Below are positions 8,409-28,209 of a stretch of 32,000 bases of DNA, in pieces. Position numbers and translations under genes: made by a program. The notes under the pieces are model-generated. The model did not search any database. It had not been told where the DNA came from and saw nothing but the letters and a program-made list of their open reading frames with translations. Origin of the DNA: Candidatus Iainarchaeum sp. (GTDB lineage Archaea > Iainarchaeota > Iainarchaeia > Iainarchaeales > JACQJH01); assembly GCA_016205145.1 (NCBI GenBank), contig JACQJH010000001.1, positions 90,001 through 122,000 of the forward strand, given 5' to 3'. Every line of letters begins with the position of its first letter. Position 1 is the first letter of the stretch.

Positions 8409-10781
8409 ATGAACGCACGCCTTGTTTTTGTCCTGCTGCTTGCGTTGCTTGCATTGGCTGGCTGTGCCGCGGTCGACAAGAAGACAATCGAGGCGTTCAA
8501 GGCAATTCCTGAAGTGCAGTCTTTTCTCGCGCAGAACCCCGATGCGCAGGTAACAGGCTATTCGCTTGACAAGCTGACGGTTGAAGGGTCCAAAAAGGAG
8601 CTCCTGAAGCAGTGCCCTGACCTGGAAATCAAGGACTATTTCCTGGTTTCGGCGAAATCCAAGGACGAAAGGCTTGAGGCATTGCTTGACAGGAAGTCAA
8701 GGGAAGTTGCCTGCATTTTGCGCACTAAAACCGCGAGGTGCGCCCTGGACGACTTCAAGTGCAGTGAAAGCGCCGGTCAGGGACAGGCAAAGCCGAAGTG
8801 CGTGGAAGGCGAGGTTTTGTGCAGCAACCAGTGCGTTGTCCCGTTGTGCGCATCTAACAGCGAATGCAACGACAATGACGCCAAAACCACTGACACGTGC
8901 AGCAGCGCGGGCAAATGCAATGCGAAATGCTCCAACAAGGAGGTGACCTGCAGGCCCAACCAGCTTTTGTGCAACGGCGCGTGCAAGAATGTTGCGTGCA
9001 GGGAGGACAAGGACTGCAATGACAGGGAAAGCCTTACAACTGACAAGTGCAGGAAACCGGCGTCATGCGAATCCTTCTGCGAAAACACGCCTTCAAGATA
9101 CCCGGTAAAAGTAAGCGTGCTGTCCGTTGACGATTTTTCGCCCAAGGTTGACGGCCCAATCAGCATTTTTGTCGGAGTAGCCAATCCTGACAACCACCAG
9201 TTGCAGTATACCCTGTTTGCCGGCAAGAAGGCGTTTTCAAACGTTGCCGCCATCAAGACGACAATCCTTGATTCAGGAAAGCAGAAAATCAAGGCGGTAA
9301 TCCACGACGTTGAAGCGGACGAGAACGTTTCCAAGGAAATCGAAATCAATGTGCGGCCGGCAACCGCAACTTCCCTGTGCGCGATTGACGAGAACTGCGA
9401 CGACGGCATAGACGGATCAGTCGACAAGTGCGAGAAGGCAGGCACCTGGGATGCACTGTGCAGGAACACTTACGCTGATTCTTCGCAAAAAGCGCTTCCA
9501 TCGATAGCGGGCTTTTCAAAGGCAAAAACCGAAAGCCTGAAATGGATTGAAGGCGGAACAAAAACCGTTTACTCGAAAGGCGGCGTGTCGGTTGAAGTGC
9601 TTGTCCTGCCGCTCAAAAACCATTTCCTGGCACTGGATTTTGCTTCAAAAAGCCTTGACACGTTCCAGAAAAAAACCTTTGTCGACGAAAACGGCGGCTA
9701 TTTCACTGCAAGCTATTTCACCTATTCAAAGGTTTTCTGGGTATCCGGCAACAACGCTGTAGCAGTAATGGCCCTGAACAAGGAAAAAGTCGACCTGGAG
9801 CAGTTCAGGAGCGCGCTCTTTGAAGTGCTTCCAAGCAATTCTGCTGCGCAGGGCATCTGCAGGCGCGGCGAGATTGCCTGCAACAACGAGTGCATCAAGC
9901 CTGTCTGCGTTAAGGATCTGGACTGCAATGACAAGAACACTGGCACTGATGACAGGTGCGAGAAGTCAAACAGCTGTGAAGCGGAGTGCAAGCATTCTGA
10001 TTTCGCTTTGCCTCCCGCCATAGACTATGTTTCATCGGATGTTTTCCGGCCAAATGCCGGGCAGAACTTTTCAGTCGCAATGTCCGCTGTCAGCGTTTCC
10101 GGCAACGCCCTGGATTACTCGATTGCCTTCGGGTTGAACGAGTTCAAGGGCAAGCCATCCGCAACGAATTGGTTTTCAAAAGCAGGCAAGCAGAAAGTGA
10201 AGCTGACTGCAAGAGACGTTGTTTCGGGAAAAACAGCAGTCAAGGAGCTTGAATTCAATATCCTTGCCACCACCGCGGCGCCGAGGTGCACTGCGGATGC
10301 CAACTGCTCCGACGGCATAGCAACGACAATCGATTACTGCCAGGGTTCAGGCACCGCCGGCTCGTTCTGCAAGAACATCCCTGAGACCAGCGAGGAAAAG
10401 CAGTTTGCCCCGAAGCTCGGCGGTTTCAAGCTTTCGGTTTTGCCGGACGTCGTTTTCCCGGTCCCGGCAAGAAAAGCGGTTTACGAGAACAACGGCCTGA
10501 AGGCGGAGGTTTTCATAGCTGAATTTGAAAGCCACGAGCGCGCTCTCGATTTTGTTTACAACGGCCTGAAGACCTTCCCGAAAGAGGGAACCGAAACTTT
10601 CAAGCAGAGTTTCGGCGGCTACTTCCAGCGCAGTTACCTGTCTTACCGCAAGGTTGCATGGGTTTCCGAGAACAAGGCAGTGCAGGTTTCGTCCTACAAC
10701 GCGGAAGCGCTTGACCTCAACGCCTTGTCCGACTATTACATGATAAATTATCCGAGCAAGACAGCCCAGCCGGCAAGCTAA
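8409..10781 (+). CDS. secreted Cys-rich lipobox protein with an internal ~300-aa duplication
   Basis: 790 aa. Signal plus lipobox: MNARLVFVLLLALLALAGC. Three 8-Cys modules (e.g. CRPNQLLCNGACKNVACREDKDCNDRESLTTDKCRKPASCESFCEN). The unit 8-Cys module / Ig-like segment / short 4-Cys module / alpha-beta domain occurs twice (8949-9836 and 9858-10760). Confidence 0.75.
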   Translation: MNARLVFVLLLALLALAGCAAVDKKTIEAFKAIPEVQSFLAQNPDAQVTGYSLDKLTVEGSKKELLKQCPDLEIKDYFLVSAKSKDERLEALLDRKSREVACILRTKTARCALDDFKCSESAGQGQAKPKCVEGEVLCSNQCVVPLCASNSECNDNDAKTTDTCSSAGKCNAKCSNKEVTCRPNQLLCNGACKNVACREDKDCNDRESLTTDKCRKPASCESFCENTPSRYPVKVSVLSVDDFSPKVDGPISIFVGVANPDNHQLQYTLFAGKKAFSNVAAIKTTILDSGKQKIKAVIHDVEADENVSKEIEINVRPATATSLCAIDENCDDGIDGSVDKCEKAGTWDALCRNTYADSSQKALPSIAGFSKAKTESLKWIEGGTKTVYSKGGVSVEVLVLPLKNHFLALDFASKSLDTFQKKTFVDENGGYFTASYFTYSKVFWVSGNNAVAVMALNKEKVDLEQFRSALFEVLPSNSAAQGICRRGEIACNNECIKPVCVKDLDCNDKNTGTDDRCEKSNSCEAECKHSDFALPPAIDYVSSDVFRPNAGQNFSVAMSAVSVSGNALDYSIAFGLNEFKGKPSATNWFSKAGKQKVKLTARDVVSGKTAVKELEFNILATTAAPRCTADANCSDGIATTIDYCQGSGTAGSFCKNIPETSEEKQFAPKLGGFKLSVLPDVVFPVPARKAVYENNGLKAEVFIAEFESHERALDFVYNGLKTFPKEGTETFKQSFGGYFQRSYLSYRKVAWVSENKAVQVSSYNAEALDLNALSDYYMINYPSKTAQPAS

Positions 10782-10985: not shown

Positions 10986-11948
10986 GTGAAAAAAACAAGG
11001 ACGATTTTTATTCCACTAATACTGTTTGCCGCATTGGTCTTTGCGGGCTGCACACAGGCAAACGAAAAAACGGGTTTGCTGACACTCAGCGCCAACGAAC
11101 GCGTAAACATTCTTGACGGTGACAGGTACTGGTCATTAGGAGCAGGAAAAGCCGACGGCATAACAGGACAACCGTTGCAGGACACTTCAACAATCTACCC
11201 CGGCTCATTTTCAATAAGAGACCTCTGGGTGCAAAAAGACAGATTATTCATTGACAGAACCGGCAGAATCGGAATCGGAACAACAGCCCCAGAAGTCAAA
11301 CTTGACATAAAAGAATCCGACCAAACATACCCGCCCTTAAGAATAACCAACACGAAAAACGATGGTTACGCAGGCATCGTCTTTGGCACAGATAGCGGCA
11401 TACAAGGGCACATGGGAGCCGCAGGTTATTATGCTGCCAATCAAAAGCTGAGAAACTCCGTTTATTTCGGGTCGACAGGGGACAAAAGAGTGGTAATAAC
11501 CGCAAACGGGATTCCCAGGATGTTCATTGAGCCGACATACTTTCAAAGCTTTATAACAAATTCGCCAGATGCAAATGGATCTACATCCTTTTCTGCCTCA
11601 ACGACCATGACTGCCGGAAACCAAGGAAGAGGAATATATTTTAGGGTAATGGATATTCAGGGAACTCGGACAGCATTGAGCGTCTCATTAGATGCAGGGG
11701 GGTCCACCGGAGTTTTCAGCGTAAACGCCCAAAAACTGGAAACAAGTGGCGGTACTTCATTCACGGCACCACAGACCGCCTTGTCTGTAACACCGGAAAC
11801 AATAAGGTTAACATTACTGAATGGCGCAAGAATAAAGATAGCGTCCTCCGCACCGGCTAACAGGCAGCTTTGTATTACTGGACAGCAAGAATTGGGTTTC
11901 TGTTCGAGTGTAAATGCGGATGGTACGTGCACATGCGTGCCAGTTTAA
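10986..11948 (+). CDS. lipobox surface protein with a tail-fibre-like GIGTT motif; paralog of 31240-32000
   Basis: GTG start 7 nt after GGAGG. MKKTRTIFIPLILFAALVFAGC is a signal plus lipobox. Contains DRTGRIGIGTTAPEVKLDIKESD and a C-terminal 4-Cys motif CITGQQELGFCSSVNADGTCTC. A 200-nt stretch is ~90% identical to the inverted copy at the window end. Confidence 0.7.
   Translation: MKKTRTIFIPLILFAALVFAGCTQANEKTGLLTLSANERVNILDGDRYWSLGAGKADGITGQPLQDTSTIYPGSFSIRDLWVQKDRLFIDRTGRIGIGTTAPEVKLDIKESDQTYPPLRITNTKNDGYAGIVFGTDSGIQGHMGAAGYYAANQKLRNSVYFGSTGDKRVVITANGIPRMFIEPTYFQSFITNSPDANGSTSFSASTTMTAGNQGRGIYFRVMDIQGTRTALSVSLDAGGSTGVFSVNAQKLETSGGTSFTAPQTALSVTPETIRLTLLNGARIKIASSAPANRQLCITGQQELGFCSSVNADGTCTCVPV
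11217..11416 (+). repeat. left arm of an inverted repeat pair (partner 31796-31995)
   Basis: Hand alignment of 11217-11416 against the reverse complement of 31796-31995 gives 19 mismatches in 200 nt, with identical runs up to 32 nt (gacataaaagaatccgaccaaacatacccgcc). Confidence 0.85.
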
Positions 11949-16590: not shown

Positions 16591-16813
16591 CCACAAAACA
16601 CCCCTTAATTGTCGAAGCCGCTTTCGTCCGGCGGTTTCGTCCGCCGGGTCCGAAGCTAAGGCCGTCCACTGTTGTGAACGGCCGAGCCGTTCGGCAAAAG
16701 CCAAACAGACAGCCTCAAAAGCCAATGAACCGATTTCCTGCAAAAAAGGGTTTTAAAGGGTTTTGGAAACTTGACCGCGGCAGGCTTTTAACCGCCGAAG
16801 CCGTATACTGGTA

Positions 16814-18424
16814 GTGGATCAAAACCTTCCAAAAGGCCAGTCCGCCATAGAATATCTTTTGCTGTTGGGCGCCGCGATTTTGATTGCCGCGGTTGTCGTT
16901 GCCTTGATTATTTTTGTGGGTTCCGGGGGCAAGCAGTCGGCGCAAAGAGGGTCGCAGACTGTTGCTGTAGCGCAGGGGAATCTTTCCAAATCCCTTGGCC
17001 TGCCAGGCCCCATCACCGACCGCGGCGGCGGAATTTTTGATTTGAAAAAGGATTTTGGCGCGAAAGGCGACGGGGTTTCCGACGATTATGAATCGTTCAT
17101 TGCTGCTGCGGCCAAGCTGAGCGGTTCGACTGACGCAACGCTTGTCATTCCTGCAGGGGACTATAAGATTGACCGGTACAAGATTTTGGCTGCGACTTCC
17201 GACGGCAGGCTTCCAAATGGCGTAACCGACATCAAGTTTTCCGGATGCAACGGCCTGGAAATTGTCGGCTTGGGAAAGGACGCATCGGGAAACTACAAGG
17301 CAAAAGTCGAGGTCAAGGGCGACTTTTACAGGTCGGCGGACCGCAGTGCCGTCAATGCCGCGGGCGTGACGGTGTGGAGTTCCAATTCCGGTTCGGTCAC
17401 GCCGTTTTATTTCGATCACTGTAACGGATTTTCCATTTCCGGCTTGGAATTGTACGGCAACAACGACAAGATGTCGCACGATCCGCGCGTCAGAGAACAC
17501 CCGTCAGGAATGGGCATTGCGACTTATGGCTGCAAAAATTATTCGATTTCCGACATTTTTGTGCACAACTTCCAGACGGACGGCATTTACCTTGGCGGCT
17601 CGGCAAGCCCCGTGGATTCGGGCGCAACCGTTGACGGCGTGGTTTCAAGCAGCAACGGCAGGCAGGGCCTCAGCATAATTCAGGTGAAAAACTCGACAAT
17701 AAAAAACAGCGTTTTCAAGGACACCGGCATTACGGGCGGAAGCGACACAGGATATAATCCGAGGGCCGGCGTTGACATCGAGCCGAACGTGAACGTCCCC
17801 AACATAACCGAAAATCTTGTTTTTGAAAACGACGAGTTCAGCAACAACCGCGGCTACCAGATTGTTTCAAGCGCTTATGTTGGCGGAATCGTGGTCAGGA
17901 ATTCAAGGGTTTTTTCGGGAAACCAGCGCAAGCTCGCCTATTTCAGGGTGAACGGCATTACAATCGAGGGCTCCGAATTCAAGACTTCTGCAAGGGAGTT
18001 TGCCCAGGACTGGGACAAGAGCGGATTCGGGGTCACTCTCATGGCGGGCGGAACCGCGCTTATAAAAAACAATCTCATAGAGGCATCCTCGTTGGCGTAT
18101 CCTGTGAAAACCGTTGGAATCCACAGGCCTTACGTGCACTTCTTTTCGGGAAGCGGGATAACCTTTGCGGGCAACAGAATTTCCACCGACTCAAGCTTTT
18201 TTTATCCCATTTCAGGGCAGGCTTATGACACCGCAATTTATTTGAACGTCGGCGAATCCTCGAACAACACTTTTTCGACCGGCATGACCGGCTTAAACCA
18301 TTTCGCAGTCGTTTACGGCCCGGCCACAAAAGTCGTTTCAGACGCGTTTTTGCCGCGGGACAATTTCAGGCCGCAGCCGGGATATGTTTGGACTGGCGCA
18401 GGCAACTCTTATTCGCAGAACTGA
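16814..18424 (+). CDS. class III (prepilin-type) signal peptide fused to a right-handed beta-helix, pectate-lyase-superfamily domain
   Basis: GTG start. N-terminus MDQNLPKG/QSAIEYLLLLGAAILIAAVVVALI (basic residue-Gly, then Q at +1, E at +5, then a hydrophobic helix). Followed by FDLKKDFGAKGDGVSDDYESF..VIPAGDY and repeated PbH1-like turns: NGFSISGLELYGNN, YSISDIFVHNFQTDGIYLGG, GLSIIQVKNSTIKNSVF, LVFENDEFSNN. Confidence 0.8.
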   Translation: MDQNLPKGQSAIEYLLLLGAAILIAAVVVALIIFVGSGGKQSAQRGSQTVAVAQGNLSKSLGLPGPITDRGGGIFDLKKDFGAKGDGVSDDYESFIAAAAKLSGSTDATLVIPAGDYKIDRYKILAATSDGRLPNGVTDIKFSGCNGLEIVGLGKDASGNYKAKVEVKGDFYRSADRSAVNAAGVTVWSSNSGSVTPFYFDHCNGFSISGLELYGNNDKMSHDPRVREHPSGMGIATYGCKNYSISDIFVHNFQTDGIYLGGSASPVDSGATVDGVVSSSNGRQGLSIIQVKNSTIKNSVFKDTGITGGSDTGYNPRAGVDIEPNVNVPNITENLVFENDEFSNNRGYQIVSSAYVGGIVVRNSRVFSGNQRKLAYFRVNGITIEGSEFKTSAREFAQDWDKSGFGVTLMAGGTALIKNNLIEASSLAYPVKTVGIHRPYVHFFSGSGITFAGNRISTDSSFFYPISGQAYDTAIYLNVGESSNNTFSTGMTGLNHFAVVYGPATKVVSDAFLPRDNFRPQPGYVWTGAGNSYSQN

Positions 18425-18483
18425 CGTTTGCCTTTTGTGCACTTGGGCGTGCCAAAGGATTTAATTTGTGTGAATGATATTTG

Positions 18484-20031
18484 ATGGTGAAACCGATGTT
18501 TTCCCGTGGCCAGTCCGCAATCGAGTATCTGCTGTTGCTTGGCGCCGCGATTTTGATTGCCGCGGTTGTCGTTGCCTTGATTTCTTTTGTGGGTTCGGGC
18601 GGAAAGACTTCGGCGCAGGAATCAGGCGTGCAGCAGAGGCTGGCAATGCAGAACCTTGCGGCTGTTGGGGGCATGGGTTTCTCCTATTCCTGTGTTGCTA
18701 ATGGTGTCTGCGAAGCCGATGAAACAATGCAGTCCTGTTCCGCGGACTGTGCTGGCAAGCCTTTCAGGCAGTACCTGCATTTTTATTCGGCGGAGGCGGG
18801 GGGTTCTGAGGTTTCTTCCGTGCCGGCGCCCATGCTTAACGTGCCCGCTTCGGGTTTGCGGCATTATATCTATGTCGAGCTTTCCGAAATGCACGGGCAT
18901 CTCAGTGTTTACCGTTCCGCCACCGTAAACAATGCGAATAACCGGTCTGTCGCGCTTTCACCCGGCGAAATCGACGCGCTGTTCAATCTTTACGGCGTGG
19001 AAACGGGCAATCCTGTTAGAGGGAAGAGCATGAACATGAGCATACTGCAGCGTGCCGACGTGCAGAAAATCCATCATGAACTTGCACAAGGCAATCCTGC
19101 GTATAATGCAAAGTACGGCAATGGCGGCCTGGAAACAGGGGTCGGGCTTGACGGTTCCGGAATGCCCGTTCTTGATGCTTCCGACAAGCTTGTGCCGGAC
19201 AGACCGGTACAGGATTACCAAGACGGCAAAACAATGCTGTGGCCGTTTTACTACAATGCCAGCGGCAAGCATAAGATGAGGGTTCTCTGGAACCTTAACA
19301 GCCCGGCGGTCAGGGAATATCTTGTGCGGTACGGCGTGAAAACCGCCTCTTTCAGTCCAAGCGGCGACCTGTTTATTGACAACACTATTTTTCCGGGCCA
19401 GGTGCTGGAGGATTATTCATATGTTTTTTCAGGTGCAAGGAACGGCCTTGCGGCGCATCTTTCCGGCATTACATTGGAAATTCGGGCAGAAATCGTGAAA
19501 CGGCTTGACGGAAAGGGGCTGATAATGAACGCTCTCAGGTTCACAAACTCCGACAATGAGATATTTTCTGATGCTGTTGTTGATTCCGGCCAGTTTGACG
19601 GTTTGATGGCCGAAAACCAGTTTTGGCGTGATGGCATTGCCATTGGCGGTTCTCCAAGGGGTGCGACGTCCGTTGCATGGTACCGGGATTTGACGCAGAA
19701 AATGAAATCAAAAGGCAAAAAGATTCTTTTTACGGCCTCCGGCTCCGGTTTTACGCGGGCTGATCCCTCAAAGATTTTGCCAGTTTGGTTATGGTTGCAC
19801 TTGGTTGCTGATGACAGCACGTATTTTCTATTGCCGGGCAATGGAGCCGATGGCGATTCGTTTGATAACCAGTTCCTTCCGTTTGTTTTTCCGCTCGGCT
19901 ATCCGCTTGACCAAGCACCGGTGCAGGACGGCAGTGTGTGGAGCAGGCGCTATGAGCGCGGCACGATTGTTTTTGACATTTCAAGCGGAAGGCTTGACGC
20001 CATAAGGTTCGAGGAAAACCCGCCCGGGTGA
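18484..20031 (+). CDS. class III (prepilin-type) signal peptide fused to a Cys mini-module and a GH-like domain; paralog of 26452-28209
   Basis: N-terminus M(VKPM)FSRG/QSAIEYLLLLGAAILIAAVVVALI; alternative ATG at 18496. 18541-18582 is 42/42 identical to 16868-16909. CVANGVCEADETMQSCSADC is followed by ~430 aa collinear with the 26452 gene (SGQFDGLMAEN, WLWLHLVADD, GYPLDQAPVQDGSVWSRRYERGTIVFD). The enzymatic family is not confidently named. Confidence 0.8.
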   Translation: MVKPMFSRGQSAIEYLLLLGAAILIAAVVVALISFVGSGGKTSAQESGVQQRLAMQNLAAVGGMGFSYSCVANGVCEADETMQSCSADCAGKPFRQYLHFYSAEAGGSEVSSVPAPMLNVPASGLRHYIYVELSEMHGHLSVYRSATVNNANNRSVALSPGEIDALFNLYGVETGNPVRGKSMNMSILQRADVQKIHHELAQGNPAYNAKYGNGGLETGVGLDGSGMPVLDASDKLVPDRPVQDYQDGKTMLWPFYYNASGKHKMRVLWNLNSPAVREYLVRYGVKTASFSPSGDLFIDNTIFPGQVLEDYSYVFSGARNGLAAHLSGITLEIRAEIVKRLDGKGLIMNALRFTNSDNEIFSDAVVDSGQFDGLMAENQFWRDGIAIGGSPRGATSVAWYRDLTQKMKSKGKKILFTASGSGFTRADPSKILPVWLWLHLVADDSTYFLLPGNGADGDSFDNQFLPFVFPLGYPLDQAPVQDGSVWSRRYERGTIVFDISSGRLDAIRFEENPPG

Positions 20032-20108: not shown

Positions 20109-20357
20109 ATGAATTTGACCGTCAATTTTTCCGGCCACGTTGAAGACGTAATTGAACGCCTCGTTGAAAAAGGCGTTGTCAAAACGAAATCCGAAGCGCT
20201 TCGGCTTGGCATTCTGAAGCTTGAAGAGCAGTATCTGCGCAGCCTTGACGCAGATGACCTGATTTTGGCTGAAAAGGCATGGGATGATTTCAAAGCAGGC
20301 AAGAACAAATCTCTGTCGGAAAGGGAGTTCTACTCTAAAACAGGCCTGAAAAAATGA
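20109..20357 (+). CDS. putative antitoxin (ribbon-helix-helix-like) of a RelE-family toxin
   Basis: 82 aa from ATG 20109; the track ORF starts at 20028. MNLTVNFSGHVEDVIERLVEKGVVKTKSEALRLGILKLEE has a strand-helix-helix pattern. Its stop overlaps the toxin start (ATGA, 20354-20357). Confidence 0.6.
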   Translation: MNLTVNFSGHVEDVIERLVEKGVVKTKSEALRLGILKLEEQYLRSLDADDLILAEKAWDDFKAGKNKSLSEREFYSKTGLKK

Positions 20358-20605
20358 GTTTTGAAGCGGTTTTTCTTGAATCTTTTGCCGATGACGTGGC
20401 AAGGCTTGACGGCAGCCAAAAAACGCTTGTTGAAAAAAGGCTCCGCAGGCTCACTGCAAACCCGTTTTCCGAAAAGCCACTTCACGGCCAGAAACGGTTT
20501 TGGGCTTCGAGGATCCTGAACCTGAGAATAATTTACCGCATTGAAGGGCAAAAAATATTTTTTGCCAGGGTTTCAAGCAGGAAAGACGTTTACAAAAACC
20601 TGTAG
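20354..20605 (+). CDS. relE: RelE/ParE-superfamily type II toxin
   Basis: 83 aa. FADDVARLDGSQKTLVEKRLRRLTANPF..PLHG....SRILNLRIIYRIEGQKIFFARVSSRKDVYK matches the RelE/StbE pattern (...RiiY.i......i..v.hRkdvY). Confidence 0.8.
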   Translation: MSFEAVFLESFADDVARLDGSQKTLVEKRLRRLTANPFSEKPLHGQKRFWASRILNLRIIYRIEGQKIFFARVSSRKDVYKNL

Positions 20606-21665: not shown

Positions 21666-23285
21666 TTATTTTTTGCCAATGCGCTCCAGCTTTTCATCCG
21701 CCTTCTTTTCCGCTTCCAGCCTTTCCAGGCCCGCGCCTTTCTCGTAGACGAATTTCATGAGTTCGAAGACAAGCGGGGTCGCCTTTTTCGCCTGATGGAA
21801 CATTTCGATTGAAACCCTTCGGTAGTCGGCGTGTCCCTGCGGCGTCGACCTCAGCTCAACCAAGTGGTACATTTCACGCGCGTTGAGAGTGAAATACCAT
21901 CTTATTTTGTACGCGAGCGGGACAACGTATTGTGCCTGCAACGGCATTTCCTTCGCGATTTTATCGTAAGTTTCCTTCGCTCCTGCCATTGCCTTTTCAA
22001 ATTCCTTCAAAACGCCCGCCTTTTCCAGTTCGGGATAAGTGTCATAGCCGAAGTTTGCCGTCAAAAGCTGGCGTTCCTGTGTAAGCTGGCGATGTCGGTG
22101 CAAGTCACGGAAGCCGCCGTAATTTGAGAGCAAGTCGAAAGTGTAGTATGCGTTTTCGAAGCTTCGCAAAGGCTTGTGCCTGCGGTTCTGCCTGTGCGCA
22201 AGAGATGCATGGATGACTTTGCGCTTTTCCTCTTCGCCCATTGCGGCAACGATTTTTTTGAGCTGGTGCAGGGGCTTGTCGCTGTGCGCGTAAAGCAGCG
22301 CGCAAACGATTTTGTTGTCGGCTTCCATGTCAAAGTCGACCAGTTCCACTTCCTTTGCCTGCTCCGCATGTTTGCCTGCAAGCAGTTCTTTTGCGGTTGC
22401 GTCAAGGTTTGCGTTCGCCTGCCTGAAAAAATCCTGTGTCGGGCCGCCGTATTTTCCGGCCGCGCGCTTGACGAAAGAAGGAATGTAAGTCAAAAGCTCT
22501 TCGTGCAATGAAGAAGCGATGCCGTTGATTTCCTTCAATGGCGAGGCGTGCATTTTGAGTATGAGGTATTCGAACGCCCTGCCATTGCCGTACAGGCCGA
22601 GGTTTGTCAGCGTTGAAGCAGGCAGGAGGCCGCGCAGGAGGTCGCAGGTTTTAGCCTTGATTGTCGACTTGTACGCGCGGTCGGTTGTCTCGGAGTCCTG
22701 CGGAAACCATTCCTCGGCCTGTGTTCTCACTTTCGGCACGAGTTCGGCGTACGTGCCGAACAGCAAATCGCACGTTTCCACGTAATCCTTTTCGAATGCC
22801 GACTGCATTATGCCAGGCTCGAGCAGGTACTGGTATCGGCCGCCCTCTTTCTCGTCAAAGTAAACGTAGCGCGTGCTTTTTTCCAGGGGGGAGAGGCCAA
22901 TGCGTGAATCCTCGAGGACTTTGCTTGCGATGATTGAAACCTTTTCGCATGCGACGTGCGCTCCGCCTAATTCCGCGACGGAATCGTCGCCGTAGCCGAC
23001 CAGAACGCGGTCGTAAAACTCTTCGGCTTTCTTGGTTGCGATTGCCTGCTGTTCTCCGTTTCCAAGTGAATAGTTGACGATTTCCCGGAAGCCGGATTCC
23101 TTGTCGGCAATGAATTCGTCGAGCAAAAGCCTGCGCAATGGTTTCGGCGAGCGCGAATAGCGCGAGAACAGTGCGCCTGAAACGACTTCGGGCAGGTTTT
23201 TGAGGACAAAGACGTTTTTGTCCATGTTCGAAAAAAACGGTTCCAGGATTTTCCGCTCTTCCGAGGAAAAAGAATTTTCCGCCAT
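21666..23285 (-). CDS. long-form ThyX-like (Thy1-fold) protein, putative FAD-dependent thymidylate synthase
   Basis: 539 aa. The C-terminal half has FRDLHRHRQLTQERQ and TLNAREMYHLVELRSTPQGHADYR, which align with the ThyX RHR motif and NxRxLxxxxxLR...H/Q region. N-terminal GALFSRYSRS suggests a second, degenerate copy. Confidence 0.6.
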   Translation of the reverse strand: MAENSFSSEERKILEPFFSNMDKNVFVLKNLPEVVSGALFSRYSRSPKPLRRLLLDEFIADKESGFREIVNYSLGNGEQQAIATKKAEEFYDRVLVGYGDDSVAELGGAHVACEKVSIIASKVLEDSRIGLSPLEKSTRYVYFDEKEGGRYQYLLEPGIMQSAFEKDYVETCDLLFGTYAELVPKVRTQAEEWFPQDSETTDRAYKSTIKAKTCDLLRGLLPASTLTNLGLYGNGRAFEYLILKMHASPLKEINGIASSLHEELLTYIPSFVKRAAGKYGGPTQDFFRQANANLDATAKELLAGKHAEQAKEVELVDFDMEADNKIVCALLYAHSDKPLHQLKKIVAAMGEEEKRKVIHASLAHRQNRRHKPLRSFENAYYTFDLLSNYGGFRDLHRHRQLTQERQLLTANFGYDTYPELEKAGVLKEFEKAMAGAKETYDKIAKEMPLQAQYVVPLAYKIRWYFTLNAREMYHLVELRSTPQGHADYRRVSIEMFHQAKKATPLVFELMKFVYEKGAGLERLEAEKKADEKLERIGKK

Positions 23286-23350: not shown

Positions 23351-26300
23351 ATGCCCCATAAAACCGGCCGGCCGCGCCATTATTCCGACAGGGCCATTAA
23401 GCGGCCCGGAAGAGGCTTTTCGCATGGCCAGGGCTCTTTGGACCGCCTGATTCTCCTCGGAATCGTGGTTTTGGTTTTCGCAGTCATAATGCTTGTTGCC
23501 TTTTCCCGTCCGCATGAAAGGGCTGACGGGAAAGTGCAGGCCTATTATGCGGGGAATGGGCGGAGTGGCGTTCGTGAAGTGTTCGACTTTTTGGGCGTGC
23601 TAAAATTTGGCATGAATTCCGGTTCCGGCGGCCCTGAAATTAAGCCCGCCGTCATTCCGGGTGACGTGAACCAAAGCAAAAAGCCGGATGTCGTGCCCGC
23701 AACAGGCACTGACAAGGAACCCGTGATTCGGGCCTGCAGCAATGACTGTTCTTCCGCCGGCTTGAGGCAGTGTTCCGGTTCCGGCTATAATGTCTGCGGA
23801 AACTTTGACGAAGACGACTGCCTTGAATGGGGTTCCTGGACAGGCTGTCCTGACGGCCGGGCGTGCGCCAACGGAAACTGCGAAGTTTCTCGCGGGGTTT
23901 TTTCTTCTGAGGGCCTTGTTTCATACTGGCGTTTTGATGATTTGTCGGATTCGTTTGGTTCAAATGATTTGGTTATGTCCGGCAATGTTGTTGCGGGTTC
24001 TTCGCCTGATTGCGCTTTCGGCGGCTGCCTTGCCCTTGATTCTTCTTCCGGGCAGGCCGAAGCCAGGGGTTTGCCGGATTCGGGCGGTTTGTCTGATTTG
24101 TCGATTGCGTTGCGCGTCAAGTTTGGCGCCGGTGGCGATACTGCCACCCGGGCCTGGGTGGCGGGCTGGGCCGATGCGCAGGGCCAGGGCGTAGGTTTTT
24201 ACCGCTATGGCGCCAGCCAGCTTGTTTTTTTCGCCAACGGCGCGGATGGCAGTTTGACTGATTGCTGGAGTTCCGCCTTGAATGACGGCAAATGGCACCG
24301 GCTGGCGGGCGAGGCGTCTGAACAGCACATAACCTTGTTTGTGGACGGGTTTCCTCTTTGTTACAAGGCGCGTTCCGGCGCATTTCTTTCCGGCGCCAGC
24401 TTCAAGGCCGGCGGCCCGGTTTCCCCATCTGGCAGCGTTCTTGTTGACGAGCTGATGGTTTTCGACCGTTCGTTCACGCAGTTCGTTCACCCGCAGGCCG
24501 GTTACACTTTGCTGGGCGCTTTGCCATCCAACGCGCTTGGCATGAGGGGGCCGGTTATAGGCGCCGGCGGCGCGGTGCCGGGCGTGTACCTGTTTGACGG
24601 CAAAATATACTTTTTTTCCAGCATGGACGCATACAACTATTATAGCCTTTGCAGTTACGCCGTTTCAGGCAGCTCCGCGCGCTCTTTTGCTGTCGAGTAC
24701 GGTGATCGTTACAATACCTTCTTCGTGGACGGGGGCTTGGTGTGTGCGTGGCCGGCAAACCGCGGGCTCGCCGTTGCGCGTCCGCCTGACGACGGCTATG
24801 CCAATGAAGGGGCGGCCGCAACCACGCGGCTGCAGGCGGGCACGTTCCTGTCAACGGCCGGCCTTGACGGGCTGCCCGTGCACCGCAAGCGCCTAATTAC
24901 CGCGGGCTGGCTCAGCCCTGATTTGAAGTCCTTAAAGGAAGACCTTGGCGTGTACGACGAGTCCGGATTCGACGGCATCGCGATAGACGACGAGGTATTC
25001 TTCAATGAACCGGGCAGGCCGTGGCCATTGAATATATTTCAGAAGACCGCCTTAAGCACGGGCCGCAGGTACCGGGAAGGGCAGTTTGACGCCGTCGCCG
25101 GAGAAGTCGGGCAGGCCCTGGGAAAAGCGAAGAACCTGAAGCATAATTACATGGTACTCTATCTGGGCTGGACGCATTCGTCGGTTCTCGGCAACCACCT
25201 GAGCCCGGTGCTCGATGCGGACGGGATACCGGTATTCGACGCCAACGGCCTTAAGCTCCATAACCTGACTGCGGACGAGCAATGGCAAATCATTGCCGGC
25301 AACGCGCGGGTTGCAGCAGGGCTGGCGAAAAAGGCCGGCCTTGAAGGAATCATAATTGATACTGAACAGAACTATTCGGTCAACACCCAGGACCCCGGTT
25401 ACATTGCTTACAAGGGTTCTCCGCTTACCCTCAGCTACGAACAATCCGTGCCGGTCAATCCGGCGCCGTTCGCCGAGTACGAGGCCGCGGCCCGCCAGCG
25501 GGGGCAACAATTGGCATCCGCGATGGCCGAGGAGTATCCGGACATGACCGTGCTCTTCCATTTTGCGTACAGCCTGTACAGCGACAAGGACAGAAAGGAA
25601 ACAGGCGGAATCGACCAAAAGAGTTATTTGGAACGGTATACCCTACTGCCTGCCTTCATCGACGGCATGCTCGAAGGCGCTCCGGGCATCCGGTTCATTG
25701 ACGGCGACGAGTGGACCTACACCATCCGGCGGCGCGGGCAACTGCTTGACCGCAAGAAGCATTTCCTTGAAAACGCGCTTGAAAAATCCGCCACAAACAC
25801 GCCCGGGAACCGACAGATTGAATACGGTCAAGAGCTGTGGGCTACCGTGCTTGAGCAGACGCCCGATGATGCAGCTTGGGTTGATGTAAACTTTATTCCC
25901 GAAGATGAGATTGAATTGGCTAAGCAGTTCGGATACGGAATCCGCGACGCCTTGCGCGCAAGCGAGGGCATGGTTCTGATTTGGCACGCACAGCGTCCGC
26001 CGTGGCCGGTCTACCGGACTGCAAGAAATGGGCAGAGGTACCGCGCCCAGGGCGTGATGCCCGATTCTTTCAGACAGGCGATAAAGGATGCGCGCAAGAA
26101 TGTCGAGGGCAACACCAATCCGGTGATGCCGGTTGTCGGTTTTGTTTCGGCAGGCACGGGGGAAAAAGTTTCAATCACTTTGCCTGAGGCAAGCGACGCC
26201 GACGGGGATTCCTTGATTACCTGGGTTGACGGCCTGCCGGAAGGCGCGTCTTACGAGCCGCTTTCCCGCACAATCGAATGGCCGAACCCGCGCGCGGGAA

Positions 26301-26417: not shown

Positions 26418-26492
26418 CTGTTTTAAAAAACCTTTCAGGGCAATCGTTTTTATGCATCCAAGCGACGCCATCAAGGGAACCGCGTCAAAAAG
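26418..26492 (+). repeat. direct repeat copy A: promoter plus first 13 codons (partner 28245-28320)
   Basis: ctgttttaaaaaacctttcagggcaatcgtttttatgcatccaagcgacgccatcaagggaaccgcgtcaaaaag is ~84% identical to copy B, with an identical 21-nt core cgtttttatgcatccaagcga. The TATA-like ttttaaaaaa (26421-26430) lies ~26 nt upstream of the conserved ATG at 26452. Confidence 0.85.
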
Positions 26493-28209
26493 ATTTTTCA
26501 TGCCGCATTTGAAACCGGTTGTTGTCTGCGCATTTGTGTTGCTTGTTTTGCTTTCCGGTTGCACCGCCACAAAAAGCAAAGGCGTGGAAAAGCCGGTTGA
26601 TTCCGACAAAAACTTTTTGGATTCAAACCAAGCCAAGTCCGCGCCCGAAACTGGCGGGCCGCGACAGCCGCCAACCACGGAATTGGTTGCTGAACAACCG
26701 GACGCCAATGTTCCGGATGCAAACGCCGGCGCACCCGACGTGAATGCAGCGGCTGCTGTCGTGTTTTGTAACCGGAACGGCGCCTGCGACACAAACGAGT
26801 CCGCGGTTTCCTGTCCGGCCGATTGTGCCATTCTTTCCGGAGGCGGAGGAGGCGGCAATTCGCCACAGCCGCCGTCAGGAAACGATAGCGGTTCGTGCAA
26901 TTCGGACGGCGCATGCAACGGAAACGAGGACACAGCTTCATGCCCTGCTGACTGCAGTGTAAGGCAGTTCAGGCATTATTTGCGGTTTTATGCTTTGGAT
27001 TACTATAATCGGTTTTCAACAAAGCCGCCGGCGCCGGAAGGGCTGGTTGAATTCACCATCACGCAGGGCACGCCTTTTGGCAACCTGCAGGATTATACTC
27101 ATTTTAATGTGACGGATTCCGGCCATGTTGTTTTGACAACTTCCACTGCGCCCAAAACTCTTGTTGCGTTGAGCCAAAGCGAGCTTGACGGCTTGTTTGC
27201 GCAGTATGGTTTTGGCGGGGATAAAAACAACATCTATTCTGGCGTGATTGCAAGGGCTGAAGTCGGGAAAATCCATGAGGAACTTGTAGAACGCCATCCG
27301 GAGCTTTTTCCGAACGGCACTGAATTGTTTGTCGGCGCCGTCATAGGGCCGGACGGGTTGCCCGAGCTCGTGGACAACTTTCCGGTCAGGGAAAGAAGCG
27401 ACATTGCCGACTACCAGCTTGGCAAAACAATGGTTTACCCGCTTCCATATTCGCCGGTCGGCTACGGGCGGTACCGGACGCTTTGGAATCACGGCAGCTG
27501 GGCGGTCAGGGTATATCTTGCAAGAAGGGCCAATAAGCTGGTGAATGGCGTTCCAGGCGTGGAGAATATTTTTTTGGATAACGTGCAATTGCCGGCTTAT
27601 ATCAAATATCTTGGCTCCCGTGTTGGTTCGGTTCCGGTGCCAAATTATGTTTCGCCCGGAAGCAGGGATGAACAGTTTGCTGTTTATGCGAACAATTTTG
27701 TTTCGGTTCTTACTGCCGTTCGCGTAAAAACCGGCGCAAAAATGCTTCTTAACGGTTTGTATGAAGTGAAGGCTAACCAAAGCATTTTTTTTCAAAAACT
27801 AATTGCGTCCGGCCAGTTTGACGGCCTTATGACGGAAAACGGGTTTTTTGCTGACGGCGTGGAAAACAATTTGGGCGGCAGCGCGGCAAGCGTGCAATGG
27901 TACTGGGATCAGGTGCAGTGGTTGAAGCAAAACGGCAAAAACGCGGTTTTTTTGGCGGGCGGGAAGGACGCTTCGAAGGCATCCAAGGCCTGGCTTTGGG
28001 TGCATTTAGTTGCTGACACCAATGTTTTCTTTTCGACCAATCCCAATGAACATTTTGACGTTTACGATTCTCCTTTGGGGTATCCTCTTGACCAGGCTCC
28101 GGTAAAAAACGGCAGCGTGTGGAGCAGGCGCTACGAGCGCGGCACGATTGTCTTTGACGTTTCGGGCGGAAGGCTTGACGACATAAAGTTTGTCGAAGGC
28201 CCGGCATAG
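26452..28209 (+). CDS. lipobox-anchored GH-like protein with two Cys mini-modules; paralog of 18484-20031
   Basis: MHPSDAIKGTASKRFFMPHLKPVVVCAFVLLVLLSGC; alternative start at 26500. FCNRNGACDTNESAVSCPADCA, a GGGGGG linker and CNSDGACNGNEDTASCPADCS. The body is collinear with the 18484 gene (SGQFDGLMTEN, WLWVHLVADT, GYPLDQAPVKNGSVWSRRYERGTIVFD). Confidence 0.8.
   Translation: MHPSDAIKGTASKRFFMPHLKPVVVCAFVLLVLLSGCTATKSKGVEKPVDSDKNFLDSNQAKSAPETGGPRQPPTTELVAEQPDANVPDANAGAPDVNAAAAVVFCNRNGACDTNESAVSCPADCAILSGGGGGGNSPQPPSGNDSGSCNSDGACNGNEDTASCPADCSVRQFRHYLRFYALDYYNRFSTKPPAPEGLVEFTITQGTPFGNLQDYTHFNVTDSGHVVLTTSTAPKTLVALSQSELDGLFAQYGFGGDKNNIYSGVIARAEVGKIHEELVERHPELFPNGTELFVGAVIGPDGLPELVDNFPVRERSDIADYQLGKTMVYPLPYSPVGYGRYRTLWNHGSWAVRVYLARRANKLVNGVPGVENIFLDNVQLPAYIKYLGSRVGSVPVPNYVSPGSRDEQFAVYANNFVSVLTAVRVKTGAKMLLNGLYEVKANQSIFFQKLIASGQFDGLMTENGFFADGVENNLGGSAASVQWYWDQVQWLKQNGKNAVFLAGGKDASKASKAWLWVHLVADTNVFFSTNPNEHFDVYDSPLGYPLDQAPVKNGSVWSRRYERGTIVFDVSGGRLDDIKFVEGPA

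What the first reader, a model, noticed from the sequence alone, without database searches (positions are those of the whole stretch)
16814..20031. Two adjacent enzyme-like proteins share one almost identical archaeal prepilin (class III) N-terminus
Both genes open with [K/R]-G / QSAIEYLLLLGAAILIAAVVVALI. That is a basic residue and Gly at -2/-1, Gln at +1, Glu at +5 and a hydrophobic helix, which is the layout of archaeal type IV pilin-like signal peptides. The segment is conserved at the DNA level (42/42 nt identical, 16868-16909 vs 18541-18582), while the mature parts are unrelated. One is a right-handed beta-helix with the DFGAKGDGVSDD pectate-lyase-superfamily opening. The other is a ~430-aa GH-like body. 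The known precedent is that Sulfolobus sugar-binding proteins carry class III signals and assemble into a bindosome. I know of no described system that places depolymerase-like catalytic folds on a shared pilin N-terminus. One hypothesis is that they are processed by a prepilin peptidase and displayed on, or assembled into, a pilus-like fibre that acts on a host or partner cell envelope, or on an exopolymer.
Basis: partly seen in the sequence, partly recalled or inferred. Interest (0 to 1): 0.8.

Follow-up and report, generated by a model that had tools for sequence, protein, structure and literature searches.

The report
Pilin-type leader on two glycan enzymes
Two neighbouring genes of a tiny DPANN archaeon attach the same pilus-subunit-type N-terminal leader and helix to two unrelated, sugar-polymer-cutting-type enzyme bodies, which suggests that this organism mounts enzymes on its surface with its pilus export route; the idea extends a known principle and is not a wholly new one.

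Summary
Gene A (16814-18424) and gene B (18481-20031) share a 37-codon N-terminal module, including an exact 42-nt run. Their bodies are unrelated.

**The module.** It is a genuine archaeal class III (prepilin-type) N-terminus. Its closest relatives are hundreds of small pilin-like proteins. One of them lies in a complete type IV pilus locus with an ATPase, two platform proteins, four class III proteins and a prepilin peptidase. Between A and B the module differs by 11 synonymous and only 2 non-synonymous changes, so the peptide is under selection in both genes.

**The bodies.**
- A is a confidently predicted right-handed beta-helix of the phage tailspike / polysaccharide lyase-epimerase type.
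- B is a GHL15 TIM barrel of the GH114/GH168/GH191 type, with an invariant Asp/Glu pair.
- No other detectable homologue of either body carries this N-terminus. A paralogue of B 6 kb away uses a lipobox-type signal instead.

**Not shown.** Cleavage, filament incorporation, enzyme activity, and the presence of a prepilin peptidase or pilus machinery in this genome.

**Verdict.** This is a new variant of a known kind (bindosome-type class III cargo proteins, modular pilins). Interest is moderate.

The parts
16786..16795 (+). TATA-like element (GCTTTTAACC) about 20-28 nt upstream of the gene A start; a possible archaeal promoter for a leaderless transcript
   Evidence: Read directly from the sequence. 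This is an inference and was not tested.
16814..18424 (+). Gene A: a 536-aa protein made of a class III leader, a hydrophobic helix, a disordered stalk and a beta-helix body
   Evidence: The ORF is. It is 100% identical to P0004, which NCBI names 'right-handed parallel beta-helix repeat-containing protein [Candidatus Diapherotrites archaeon]'.
16814..16837 (+). Gene A leader peptide MDQNLPKG; cleavage is predicted after Gly8 (between 16837 and 16838)
   Evidence: The K-G|Q motif is present. 138 of the 149 closest N-terminal relatives (93%) have [KR][GA]Q, and 143 match the looser leader pattern used; the median leader is 6 aa. Cleavage itself is inferred.
16835..16945 (+). Shared N-terminal module, copy in A (G8..Q44: GQSAIEYLLLLGAAILIAAVVVALIIFVGSGGKQSAQ); it contains the exact 42-nt run 16868-16909
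   Evidence: It scores 46.7 bits against an HMM of related pilin N-termini (circular for A and B, see the report). Pfam Class_IIIsignal gives 16.7 bits, below the 23.7 cut-off.
16922..17032 (+). Gene A stalk, residues 37-73: Gly/Ser/Gln-rich and predicted disordered
   Evidence: AlphaFold2 pLDDT is below 50 for residues 37-60 and 62-65.
17033..18352 (+). Gene A body, residues 74-513: a right-handed parallel beta-helix. Family-invariant polar residues are D256, R283 (nearly invariant N281, Q284; motif NGRQGLS), D321/E323 (AGVDIEPN) and N345
   Evidence: - Pfam Beta_helix 2.6e-10.
- AF2 mean pLDDT 83.
- Foldseek PDB matches: AlgE4/AlgE6 epimerases, RbmB lyase, tailspikes.
- BFVD matches: phage pectate-lyase-superfamily proteins and depolymerases, TM 0.61-0.65.
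- The family profile hits crAss001 tail fibre gp22 at 8e-35 and shares the two motifs.
- Invariant columns are listed.
18457..18468 (+). TATA-like element (GGATTTAATTTG) about 15-25 nt upstream of the gene B start codons
   Evidence: Read directly from the sequence. This is an inference and was not tested.
18481..20031 (+). Gene B: a 516-aa protein (TTG 18481; alternative ATG at 18484 or 18496) made of a class III leader, a hydrophobic helix, a Cys-rich stalk and a GHL15 TIM-barrel body
   Evidence: The ORF is. Homologues are P0001, P0002, P0003 and P0053-56.
18481..18510 (+). Gene B leader peptide (M)MVKPMFSRG; cleavage is predicted after Gly10
   Evidence: The R-G|Q motif is present. Cleavage is inferred.
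18508..18618 (+). Shared N-terminal module, copy in B (G10..Q46); it contains the exact 42-nt run 18541-18582
   Evidence: It scores 47.4 bits against the pilin N-terminus HMM. Pfam Class_IIIsignal gives 18.8 bits, below the cut-off.
18595..18768 (+). Gene B stalk, residues 39-96: predicted disordered, with one Cys-rich motif CVANGVCEADETMQSCSADC
   Evidence: AF2 pLDDT is below 50 for residues 38-96. The same motif occurs twice in the paralogue P0001.
18769..20028 (+). Gene B body, residues 97-516: a GHL15-family (beta/alpha)8-like glycoside-hydrolase fold. The candidate catalytic pair is D300 (19378-19380) and E378 (19612-19614)
   Evidence: - 7 of 8 family members hit PF14885 GHL15, best 1.9e-13.
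- AF2 pLDDT is mostly 70-95 from residue 130 onward.
- Foldseek matches: GH168 endo-fucanases, PbFucA, GH191, GH156, E 7e-9 to 1e-4.
- D300 and E378 are invariant in all 8 members and sit at the ends of predicted strands.
- The Asp/Glu pair in GH114/GH191/GH166/GH135 is described in PMC12054363.
23351..26377 (+). Probable third class III-type cargo gene of the same neighbourhood: a 1008-aa Laminin_G_3 protein with ..RGFSHG|QGSLDRLILLGIVVLVFAVIML
   Evidence: It is the only other ORF in the window that matches the pilin N-terminus HMM: 12.9 bits, E 0.0016, against a next best of 2 bits. Laminin_G_3 scores 2.1e-7. His replaces Lys/Arg at -2, so the assignment is uncertain.
26453..28209 (+). Paralogue of gene B (P0001 = HY394_00575, 37% identical body) that carries a lipobox-like signal (LLLSGC) instead of the class III module

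Best explanation
A and B are surface-exposed, polysaccharide-active enzymes of a Diapherotrites (DPANN) archaeon. A is a tailspike-like beta-helix of the lyase / epimerase / hydrolase type. B is a GHL15 TIM-barrel glycosidase of the GH114/GH168/GH191 type. Each body has been fitted with the same pilin-type N-terminal module: a class III signal, a 23-28-residue hydrophobic helix, and a GSGGKxSAQ hinge.

**Proposed mechanism**
1. The precursor inserts into the membrane through its hydrophobic helix (inferred).
2. A PibD/EppA-type prepilin peptidase removes the 8-10-residue leader after Gly, exposing Gln+1 and Glu+5 (inferred from the motif and from homology).
3. The mature enzyme is held by the pilin-type helix, with its catalytic body on a 35-60-residue flexible stalk outside the cell (the stalk and fold are shown by prediction).
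4. The enzyme then either stays as a membrane-tethered ectoenzyme, or the type IV pilus machinery lifts it into a filament as a minor or tip subunit, as proposed for the Sulfolobus bindosome. I consider the second option less likely (about one in three).

**Likely role.** The enzymes probably cut or remodel exopolysaccharide, capsule or cell-envelope glycans of a partner organism or of the biofilm matrix.

**Origin.** The module was copied locally between the two adjacent genes onto bodies of bacterial or phage type. It has since been kept by purifying selection, and its core was homogenised by gene conversion.
For: **The module is pilin-type**
- A profile of the two N-termini finds 413 representatives at E<=1e-3. 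In the top 149 the median length is 103 aa, 138 of 149 have [KR][GA]Q (143 match the looser leader pattern used), and the consensus is KGQGALEYLLLIGGAVLIAAIVIALL..SAQ.
- Ten longer relatives all pass Pfam Class_IIIsignal, at 24-33 bits.
- Relative P0060 lies in a locus with T2SSE, T2SSF, T2SSF, four class III proteins and a prepilin peptidase carrying the D.RYRIIPN and GGDLKLF motifs.
- Other relatives lie within 10 kb of Peptidase_A24 or of T2SSE plus two T2SSF genes.

**The lineage has pili**
- The related GQSAxEYL motif marks more than 120 DPANN loci. Most encode 130-170-aa pilins.
- 33 of those loci encode T2SSE and 56 encode T2SSF. Twelve of the loci are Iainarchaeum.

**The peptide is under selection**
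- The module shows 11 synonymous against 2 non-synonymous differences. Gly-1, Gln+1 and Glu+5 are kept despite synonymous change at codons +3 to +5.

**The bodies look like enzymes**
- Both families have invariant acidic residues.

**The module was grafted**
- None of 47 A-homologues and none of 7 B-homologues carries this N-terminus. They carry Sec, Tat or lipobox signals, or phage-like N-termini.
Against: - No prepilin peptidase, pilus ATPase or platform gene lies in the 32-kb window or in about 5 kb of extra flank.
- In at least 18 related Iainarchaeia loci the pilin and pilus genes lie directly downstream of the PPAT-CoaE pair. In this genome that place holds other genes. The machinery may therefore have moved or been lost.
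- A and B themselves fall below Pfam's PF04021 cut-off: 16.7 and 18.8 bits against 23.7.
- There is no globular pilin head between the helix and the cargo, unlike structurally characterised modular pilins.
- Among the 16 closest N-terminal relatives of 200 aa or more, the 10 that were scanned carry binding-type cargo (LamG, PKD, Lcl_C, CHB_HEX_C), not catalytic cargo.
- Enzyme activity, cleavage and localisation were not measured.
- The B model is only of moderate confidence (pLDDT 69.7, 8-sequence alignment).
Confidence: 0.6

Rival explanations
1. The N-terminus is only an uncleaved signal-anchor. It derives from a pilin gene but now serves as a plain transmembrane tether inserted by Sec/SRP, with no peptidase and no pilus machinery involved.
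For: - No pilus or peptidase genes lie in the window or its flanks.
- The syntenic pilus position is empty.
- The hydrophobic stretch is of membrane-spanning length, 23 residues with a mean Kyte-Doolittle value of 2.7-2.9.
- There is no pilin head domain.
Against: A plain anchor would not need the cleavage-site residues. K/R-G, Gln+1 and Glu+5 are nonetheless kept in both copies across 11 synonymous changes. They also match the motif of 138 of 149 relatives, including pilins beside a prepilin peptidase.
Confidence: 0.2
2. The bodies are non-catalytic adhesins or glycan-binding modules. The proteins would then be ordinary adhesive pilin-like surface proteins, as in bacterial modular pilins and the LamG-bearing relatives.
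For: - Beta-helices also serve as adhesins; PfbA is among the top structural matches.
- The closest solved sequence relative of A is a phage tail fibre with no demonstrated activity.
- The cargo of N-terminal relatives is mostly of binding type.
Against: - A's family keeps an invariant polar cluster (D256, R283, D321, E323, N345), which is typical of an active-site groove.
- B's family keeps an Asp/Glu pair at strand ends with the spacing seen in the GH114/GH191 clan.
- All top structural matches of B are characterised glycoside hydrolases.
Confidence: 0.15
3. The N-termini are ordinary Sec signal peptides removed by signal peptidase I, which would release free secreted enzymes.
For: The n-region is short and basic, and it is followed by a hydrophobic region.
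Against: - The hydrophobic region is 23-28 residues long, far more than a typical cleaved h-region.
- It is followed by GSGGK, not by an AxA-type site.
- The sequence is homologous to pilin N-termini.
Confidence: 0.04

Closest known systems
[quoted passage not shown]
   Same: [quoted passage not shown] The genes lie away from the pilus locus. One machinery is proposed to serve several cargo proteins.
   Different: The cargo here is CAZyme-like (a beta-helix and a GHL15 TIM barrel), not an ABC-transporter binding protein. There is no adjacent ABC transporter. The organism is a DPANN archaeon. No Bas-like assembly genes could be examined.
Bacterial modular type IV pilins (S. sanguinis PilB/PilC; Raynaud et al. 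2021, PMC8179133)
   Same: A functional module is grafted onto a pilin N-terminus so that a filament can present it. Architectures with predicted peptidase modules (S74, M26) are listed in that work.
   Different: Characterised modular pilins keep a complete pilin module (alpha1 plus a globular head) before the extra module. A and B have only the helix and a disordered stalk. The signal is of the archaeal type, with K/R at -2 and no bacterial N-methylation motif.
Epd/Flp-like archaeal type IV pilus loci with helix-only and small pilins ('system 1': one ATPase and two platform proteins)
   Same: The A/B module is homologous to pilins of such loci: L128 has T2SSE, two T2SSF genes, class III proteins of 61, 172, 153 and 63 aa, and a prepilin peptidase.
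   Different: A and B are 3-9 times larger than those pilins. They lie outside any such locus.
Phage tailspike / tail-fibre depolymerases and exopolysaccharide lyases or epimerases (crAss001 gp22, Vibrio phage pVa5 pectate-lyase-superfamily protein, RbmB, AlgE4)
   Same: The beta-helix fold is shared, together with the DFGAKGDG start motif and the NGRQG.S / AG.D.EPN core motifs.
   Different: Those proteins are virion-borne or secreted with Sec or Tat signals. A is anchored by a pilin-type helix. Its substrate and reaction type are unknown.
GHL15 (PF14885) and the GH114/GH166/GH135/GH191/GH168 TIM-barrel glycosidases that act on galactosaminogalactan, Pel and fucans
   Same: B has a predicted (beta/alpha)8 fold and an invariant Asp/Glu pair. 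Its family members match PF14885.
   Different: B itself does not reach PF14885 at E<=0.01. No GHL15 member has a demonstrated activity as far as I know. B has an added Cys-rich stalk and the class III module.

Membership tests
Archaeal class III (prepilin-type) signal peptide / type IV pilin-like N-terminus | A short basic leader ending in [K/R]-[G/A], followed by Gln/Ala/Ser at +1 | tested here: met
   A has ..PKG|Q (8-aa leader) and B has ..SRG|Q (10-aa leader, or 6-9 from the internal ATGs). 138 of the 149 closest relatives have the same motif.
Archaeal class III (prepilin-type) signal peptide / type IV pilin-like N-terminus | An acidic residue at +5 and a hydrophobic alpha-helix of about 20 residues directly after the cleavage site | tested here: met
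   Glu is at +5 in both. AF2 predicts helices at 11-36 (A) and 13-38 (B). The mean Kyte-Doolittle value is 2.7-2.9 over 23 residues.
Archaeal class III (prepilin-type) signal peptide / type IV pilin-like N-terminus | A score above Pfam PF04021's gathering threshold (23.7 bits) | tested here: not met
   A scores 16.7 bits and B 18.8 bits. For calibration, ten homologous N-termini score 24.4-32.9 bits, while four bona fide DPANN GQSALEYLMTYGWA pilins do not hit PF04021 at all at E<=1.
Archaeal class III (prepilin-type) signal peptide / type IV pilin-like N-terminus | Sequence homology to pilins encoded in type IV pilus loci | tested here: met
   The profile search finds 413 hits at E<=1e-3. P0060 (3.6e-8) lies in a locus with T2SSE, two T2SSF genes, pilins and a prepilin peptidase. 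P0109 and P0104 lie near T2SSE/T2SSF or Peptidase_A24.
Archaeal class III (prepilin-type) signal peptide / type IV pilin-like N-terminus | A prepilin peptidase (PibD/FlaK/EppA) encoded in the same genome, and actual cleavage after Gly | not testable with these tools
   The window and its flanks lack one.
Modular type IV pilin (sensu Raynaud et al. 2021) | A complete pilin module (alpha1 helix plus a globular beta-sheet head) preceding the grafted module | tested here: not met
   In A the helix (11-36) is followed by a disordered 37-65 stretch and then the beta-helix from residue 74. In B the helix is followed by a disordered, Cys-rich 38-96 stretch and then the barrel. By contrast, DPANN GQSA-type large pilins keep the head domain.
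Modular type IV pilin (sensu Raynaud et al. 2021) | Incorporation into a type IV filament | not testable with these tools
   This needs microscopy, proteomics or a multimer model with the cognate major pilin, which is unknown for this genome.
Bindosome-type class III cargo protein | A class III signal and helix placed directly on a non-pilin functional domain | tested here: met
Bindosome-type class III cargo protein | The cargo is a substrate-binding protein linked to an ABC transporter | tested here: not met
   The cargo domains are Beta_helix and GHL15-like. No ABC transporter genes lie next to them.
Pectin-lyase-fold right-handed beta-helix (PF13229 / PF12708) | A Pfam match above threshold and a predicted right-handed parallel beta-helix | tested here: met
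   PF13229 scores 40.6 bits against a 25.9 cut-off; PF12708 scores 25.4, just under its cut-off of 27. The AF2 model has pLDDT 83 with a beta-helix at 74-513. Foldseek probability is 1.0 to AlgE4, RbmB, GH110 and tailspikes.
Pectin-lyase-fold right-handed beta-helix (PF13229 / PF12708) | An identifiable catalytic machinery of a specific enzyme family (lyase, epimerase or GH28-type) | tested here: inconclusive
   The invariant residues D256, R283, D321, E323 and N345 are shared with crAss001 gp22. No characterised enzyme with these motifs was found, so the reaction type cannot be assigned.
GHL15 (PF14885) / GH114-GH168-GH191 TIM-barrel glycosidases | A match to PF14885 | tested here: inconclusive
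   B itself has no hit at E<=0.01. It is clearly homologous (E 7.5e-66 to 3.5e-36) to proteins that do match, and 7 of the 8 family members match, best 1.9e-13.
GHL15 (PF14885) / GH114-GH168-GH191 TIM-barrel glycosidases | [quoted passage not shown] | tested here: inconclusive
   The AF2 model is of moderate confidence. Foldseek gives E 7e-9 and TM 0.46-0.51 to GH168 and PbFucA. D300 and E378 are invariant and sit at strand ends, 78 residues apart, against 58-69 in GH114/GH191/GH166. No residue-level superposition was possible.

The most novel reading that the evidence does not exclude
The archaeon builds an 'enzyme-armed' type IV filament. A and B, and perhaps the LamG protein at 23351-26377, would be incorporated through their shared pilin helix at the tip of, or along, an Epd/Flp-like pilus. 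The fibre would then carry a glycan-binding module and two different depolymerases to a partner cell's envelope or exopolymer. This would be a catalytic pilus used for attachment, penetration or foraging by an ultra-small archaeon, and it has not been described in any domain of life.
Probability: 0.22. Interest if true: 0.85.

Novelty: new variant of a known kind. Interest (0 to 1): 0.55.

Why it matters
DPANN archaea have tiny genomes and are thought to live on or with other cells. How they contact, open or feed from a partner's envelope is largely unknown.

If pilin-type N-termini are a general carrier for mounting imported polysaccharide-degrading enzymes on the cell surface or on a filament, three things follow:
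- The bindosome idea would extend from nutrient binding to catalysis.
- There would be a concrete, testable set of effector candidates for DPANN-partner or DPANN-biofilm interaction.
- Export-module shuffling would be shown at work, because the same GHL15 body appears in this one genome with either a class III signal or a lipobox signal.

The result also shows that PF04021-based screens miss such proteins.

Tried and rejected
- **Narrow DNA scan.** An exact-motif scan for GQSAIEYLLL found nothing in 185k genomes. In JGI metagenomes it found only two chance-like hits. The exact module therefore seems confined to this organism.
- **Looking up gene A's contig.** It is not on record. Only short Logan contigs of the source runs SRR12113383-5 were found. 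The rest of the MAG could not be searched for a peptidase or pilus genes.
- **NCBIfam.** No hits for A, B, their relatives or the LamG protein.
- **Sequence search of B's family against PDB.** Nothing significant; the best GH114-like hit had E 0.84. Only the fold comparison was informative.
- **P0159.** This 366-aa relative by N-terminus was tested as a possible second GHL15-type cargo. It is unrelated (hhalign probability 0.5%).
- **P0056.** This B-family member was tested for a Pfam pilin N-terminus. None was recognised, so the idea of a recurrent pilin-GHL15 association stays unproven.
- **Prepilin peptidase queries.** Searches against the 120 DPANN pilin loci gave no hits at 1e-3. The peptidase is usually not next to those pilins.
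- **Recent-duplication explanation.** I rejected the idea that the shared N-terminus merely reflects a recent whole-gene duplication, for two reasons. The bodies are unrelated, and the module carries 11 synonymous differences.
- **Literature.** Searches for archaeal enzymes with class III signals found no precedent. Szabo et al. 2007 (PMC1797317) could not be read.

Full report
**1. The observation**

Two same-strand ORFs lie 56 nt apart. Gene A is 16814..18424 (536 aa) and gene B is 18481..20031 (516 aa).

Their 5' ends share an exact 42-nt run, 16868-16909 = 18541-18582. It is unique to these two sites even with three mismatches allowed, against 0 matches in 100 shuffles.

In frame, the shared unit is 37 codons long: G-QSAIEYLLLLGAAILIAAVVVALI[I/S]FVGSGGK[Q/T]SAQ, at 16835-16945 and 18508-18618. 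Of these codons, 11 differ synonymously and only 2 non-synonymously. Similarity then stops abruptly. The body-to-body alignment score is 59, against 42 +/- 8 for shuffles.

**2. Source and setting**

Gene A is 100% identical to a protein of a 'Candidatus Diapherotrites archaeon' MAG on a 612,963-bp contig. The paralogue of B in the window is that MAG's HY394_00575.

The window otherwise holds housekeeping genes: PPDK, ThyX, CoaBC, PPAT, CoaE, a GAN-type DHH nuclease and a polyprenyl synthase. It also holds several predicted surface proteins with lipobox-like signals.

**3. What the shared N-terminus is**

The layout is that of an archaeal class III signal. A short basic leader ends in K/R-Gly, followed by Gln+1, Glu+5 and a 23-28-residue hydrophobic helix.

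Pfam's Class_IIIsignal model scores both proteins below its cut-off: 16.7 and 18.8 bits against 23.7. That test is insensitive in this lineage, because four undoubted DPANN pilins do not hit the model at all.

Homology settles the question:
- A profile of the two N-termini, searched against 1.84 billion representatives, finds 413 proteins at E<=1e-3.
- The best 149 have a median length of 103 aa. 138 of them carry [KR][GA]Q (143 match the looser leader pattern used), after a median 6-residue leader.
- Their consensus is KGQGALEYLLLIGGAVLIAAIVIALL..G.SAQ, which matches A and B even through the hinge.
- Ten longer relatives all pass PF04021, at 24-33 bits.
- Relative P0060 lies in a textbook archaeal type IV pilus locus. 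It contains T2SSE, T2SSF, T2SSF and four class III proteins of 61, 172, 153 and 63 aa. It ends with a polytopic protein carrying the prepilin-peptidase motifs D.RYRIIPN and GGDLKLF.
- Two other relatives lie within 10 kb of a Peptidase_A24 gene, or of a T2SSE plus two T2SSF genes, on archaeal contigs.

Most encode 130-170-aa pilins. Of those loci, 33 encode the ATPase and 56 a platform protein.

An HMM of the related N-termini scores A and B at 46-47 bits. This is circular, because those sequences were selected by similarity to A and B. The same HMM singles out only one further ORF in the window, the 1008-aa LamG protein at 23351-26377, at 12.9 bits and E 0.0016.

**4. What the bodies are**

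*Gene A.*
- It matches Pfam Beta_helix at 2.6e-10.
- The AlphaFold2 model is confident (pLDDT 83). It shows an N-terminal helix at 11-36, a disordered stalk at 37-65 and a right-handed beta-helix at 74-513.
- Structural neighbours in PDB are the mannuronan C5-epimerases AlgE4 and AlgE6, the Vibrio biofilm polysaccharide lyase RbmB, GH110, alginate epimerase/lyase and tailspikes.
- Among viral models the neighbours are phage pectate-lyase-superfamily proteins and capsule depolymerases, with a best E of 4.6e-16 and TM 0.61-0.65.
- By sequence profile the closest solved relative is the crAss001 tail fibre gp22 (8e-35). It shares the family's invariant motifs NGRQG.S and AG.D.EPN. No activity is described for gp22.
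- PHROGs gives phage families of unknown function and tailspike families.

*Gene B.*
- Its family has only eight detectable members, and 7 of the 8 match Pfam GHL15.
- The model is of moderate confidence overall (pLDDT 69.7) and good over residues 130-516.
- It matches GH168 endo-fucanases, PbFucA, GH191 and GH156 TIM barrels, with E from 7e-9 to 1e-4.
- D300 and E378 are invariant and sit at the ends of predicted strands. This fits the Asp nucleophile / Glu acid-base pair of GH114, GH191, GH166 and GH135 (PMC12054363). I could not superpose residues, so this remains an inference.

Both folds belong to enzyme groups that act on capsules, biofilm matrix and other exopolysaccharides. The exact substrates cannot be named.

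**5. How the arrangement arose**
- None of the other 47 A-homologues, and none of the 7 B-homologues, carries this N-terminus. They carry Sec, Tat or lipobox signals, or phage-like N-termini.
- B's own paralogue 6 kb downstream has the same body with a lipobox-like signal.
- A's N-terminus is by far the closest relative of B's: 106 bits, against 52 bits for the next hit.

The module was therefore copied locally onto two imported bodies.

The 11:2 ratio of synonymous to non-synonymous changes shows two things. The copying is not very recent, and the peptide, including the cleavage-site residues, is under purifying selection in both genes.

The 14 consecutive codons without a single synonymous change sit between flanks where most codons differ. 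Taking roughly 60% of flanking codons as changed, my back-of-envelope estimate of the chance of this is about 3e-6. The run is best explained by a gene-conversion tract (inference).

Each gene has its own TATA-like element about 20-25 nt upstream of its start codon (inference).

**6. The machinery question**

This is the main gap. The window and about 5 kb of extra flank recovered from Logan contigs contain no prepilin peptidase, pilus ATPase or platform gene.

In at least 18 related Iainarchaeia loci, the pilin and pilus genes lie immediately downstream of the PPAT-CoaE pair. Here that position holds a transglutaminase-like gene, NUDIX, PGM and GAPDH. The MAG's long contig is not indexed, and the collection scans were exhausted.

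**7. Mechanism and rivals**

The best-supported reading (confidence 0.6) is as follows. Both proteins are exported ectoenzymes. Their class III leader is removed by a prepilin peptidase, and they are held by the pilin-type helix, with the catalytic body on a flexible stalk.

Whether they remain membrane-tethered or are lifted into a filament is open. Given the missing head domain and the unknown machinery, I put filament incorporation at roughly one in three.

The rivals are:
- a degenerate, uncleaved signal-anchor (0.2), which is argued against by the conserved cleavage motif;
- non-catalytic adhesins (0.15), argued against by the invariant acidic residues and the hydrolase neighbours;
- SPase I-cleaved secreted enzymes (0.04), argued against by the length of the hydrophobic region and the homology to pilins.

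**8. Relation to what is known**
- Class III signals on non-pilin cargo are established for Sulfolobus sugar-binding proteins. A 2026 preprint reports them as widespread for binding proteins in archaea, including some beta-helical ones, but it does not mention enzymes.
- Bacterial modular pilins are widespread and include predicted peptidase modules.
- Tad and type IV pilus tips that carry variable domains are documented.
- DPANN genomes themselves hold large GQSA-type pilins with LamG, beta-helix, beta-propeller or Hint modules behind a full pilin domain.

The new features here are:
- the CAZyme-like, phage- or bacterial-type catalytic cargo;
- the absence of a pilin head;
- the sharing of one module by two unrelated adjacent genes;
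- the parallel use of a class III signal and a lipobox signal for paralogous bodies.

I found no paper that describes an archaeal enzyme with a class III signal. The library is incomplete, however, and the key 2007 FlaFind paper could not be read.

I classify the finding as a new variant of a known kind, of moderate interest.

Noticed in passing
window 23351-26377 (+): A 1008-aa Laminin_G_3 protein whose N-terminus (..RGFSHG|QGSLDRLILLGIVVLVFAVIML) is the only other ORF in the window to match the pilin N-terminus HMM (12.9 bits, E 0.0016). It is probably a third class III-type cargo protein. His replaces Lys/Arg at -2 and the leader is about 37 aa long. The gene's GC content is 0.58, against 0.52 for the window.
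   Followed up: partly
window 26453-28209 (+): A GHL15 paralogue of gene B (P0001 = HY394_00575, 37% identical). It has a lipobox-like signal (LLLSGC) and two copies of the Cys-rich motif C..G.C...E....SCPADC, which occurs once in B's stalk. The same catalytic-type body is therefore used with two different anchoring signals in one genome.
   Followed up: partly
window 8409-10781, 10986-11948, 29597-31009 (+): Three more predicted surface proteins have lipobox-like N-termini (..LALAGC, ..VFAGC, ..VVSGC). Lipoprotein-type signals appear to be common in this DPANN genome, although archaeal lipobox processing is poorly understood.
   Followed up: no
window 10986-11948 (+) and 31240-31983 (-): Two paralogous genes share QKDRLF[IV]DRTG[RK]IGIGTT.PEVKLDIKE. 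The first gives a weak PHROG hit to a tail fibre protein (E 3.6e-4).
   Followed up: no
window 20109-20605 (+): A small RHH-like gene is followed by a ParE-family toxin gene (PF05016, 5.7e-7). This type II toxin-antitoxin pair lies directly after gene B; the longest ORF of the first gene overlaps B's stop codon.
   Followed up: no
window 1431-2475 (-) compared with L012, L047, L038, L083, L085, L010 and others: The PPAT-CoaE pair is syntenic with at least 18 Iainarchaeia loci, in which a GQSALEYL pilin and a pilus locus (two T2SSF genes, or T2SSF plus T2SSE) follow directly. In this genome that position holds a transglutaminase-like gene, NUDIX, PGM and GAPDH. The pilus locus has therefore moved or been lost.
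   Followed up: partly
window 21666-23285 (-): ThyX is 539 aa long and has two Thy1-domain stretches, which suggests a tandem-domain (fused) flavin-dependent thymidylate synthase.
   Followed up: no
P0057 (ENA protein, 233 aa), matching window about 19640-20028: A database protein joins an unrelated membrane-protein N-terminus to the last ~130 residues of B at 96% identity. It is either an assembly chimera or a rearranged allele in a related strain.
   Followed up: no
P0056 (ENA protein, 629 aa; B-family member): Another GHL15-family protein starts with a different pilin-like N-terminus (MIKMKKRSISAIVAMVLIILITVAG) followed by an extra domain of about 190 aa. Pfam does not recognise it. If it is real, GHL15 bodies have been joined to pilin-like N-termini more than once.
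   Followed up: partly
L128 1567-7645 and L129 1-4644: Two unrelated archaeal contigs share the gene order RFC small subunit, T2SSE, T2SSF, T2SSF. In L128 this is followed by four class III proteins and a prepilin peptidase. The linkage of RFC to a pilus locus is conserved and unexplained.
   Followed up: no
gene B, window 18481-20031: No identical protein to B is present in the 5.8-billion-protein collection, although A and the neighbouring genes of the same MAG are. B may be unannotated or flagged as a pseudogene in the public record, even though the ORF is intact here.
   Followed up: no
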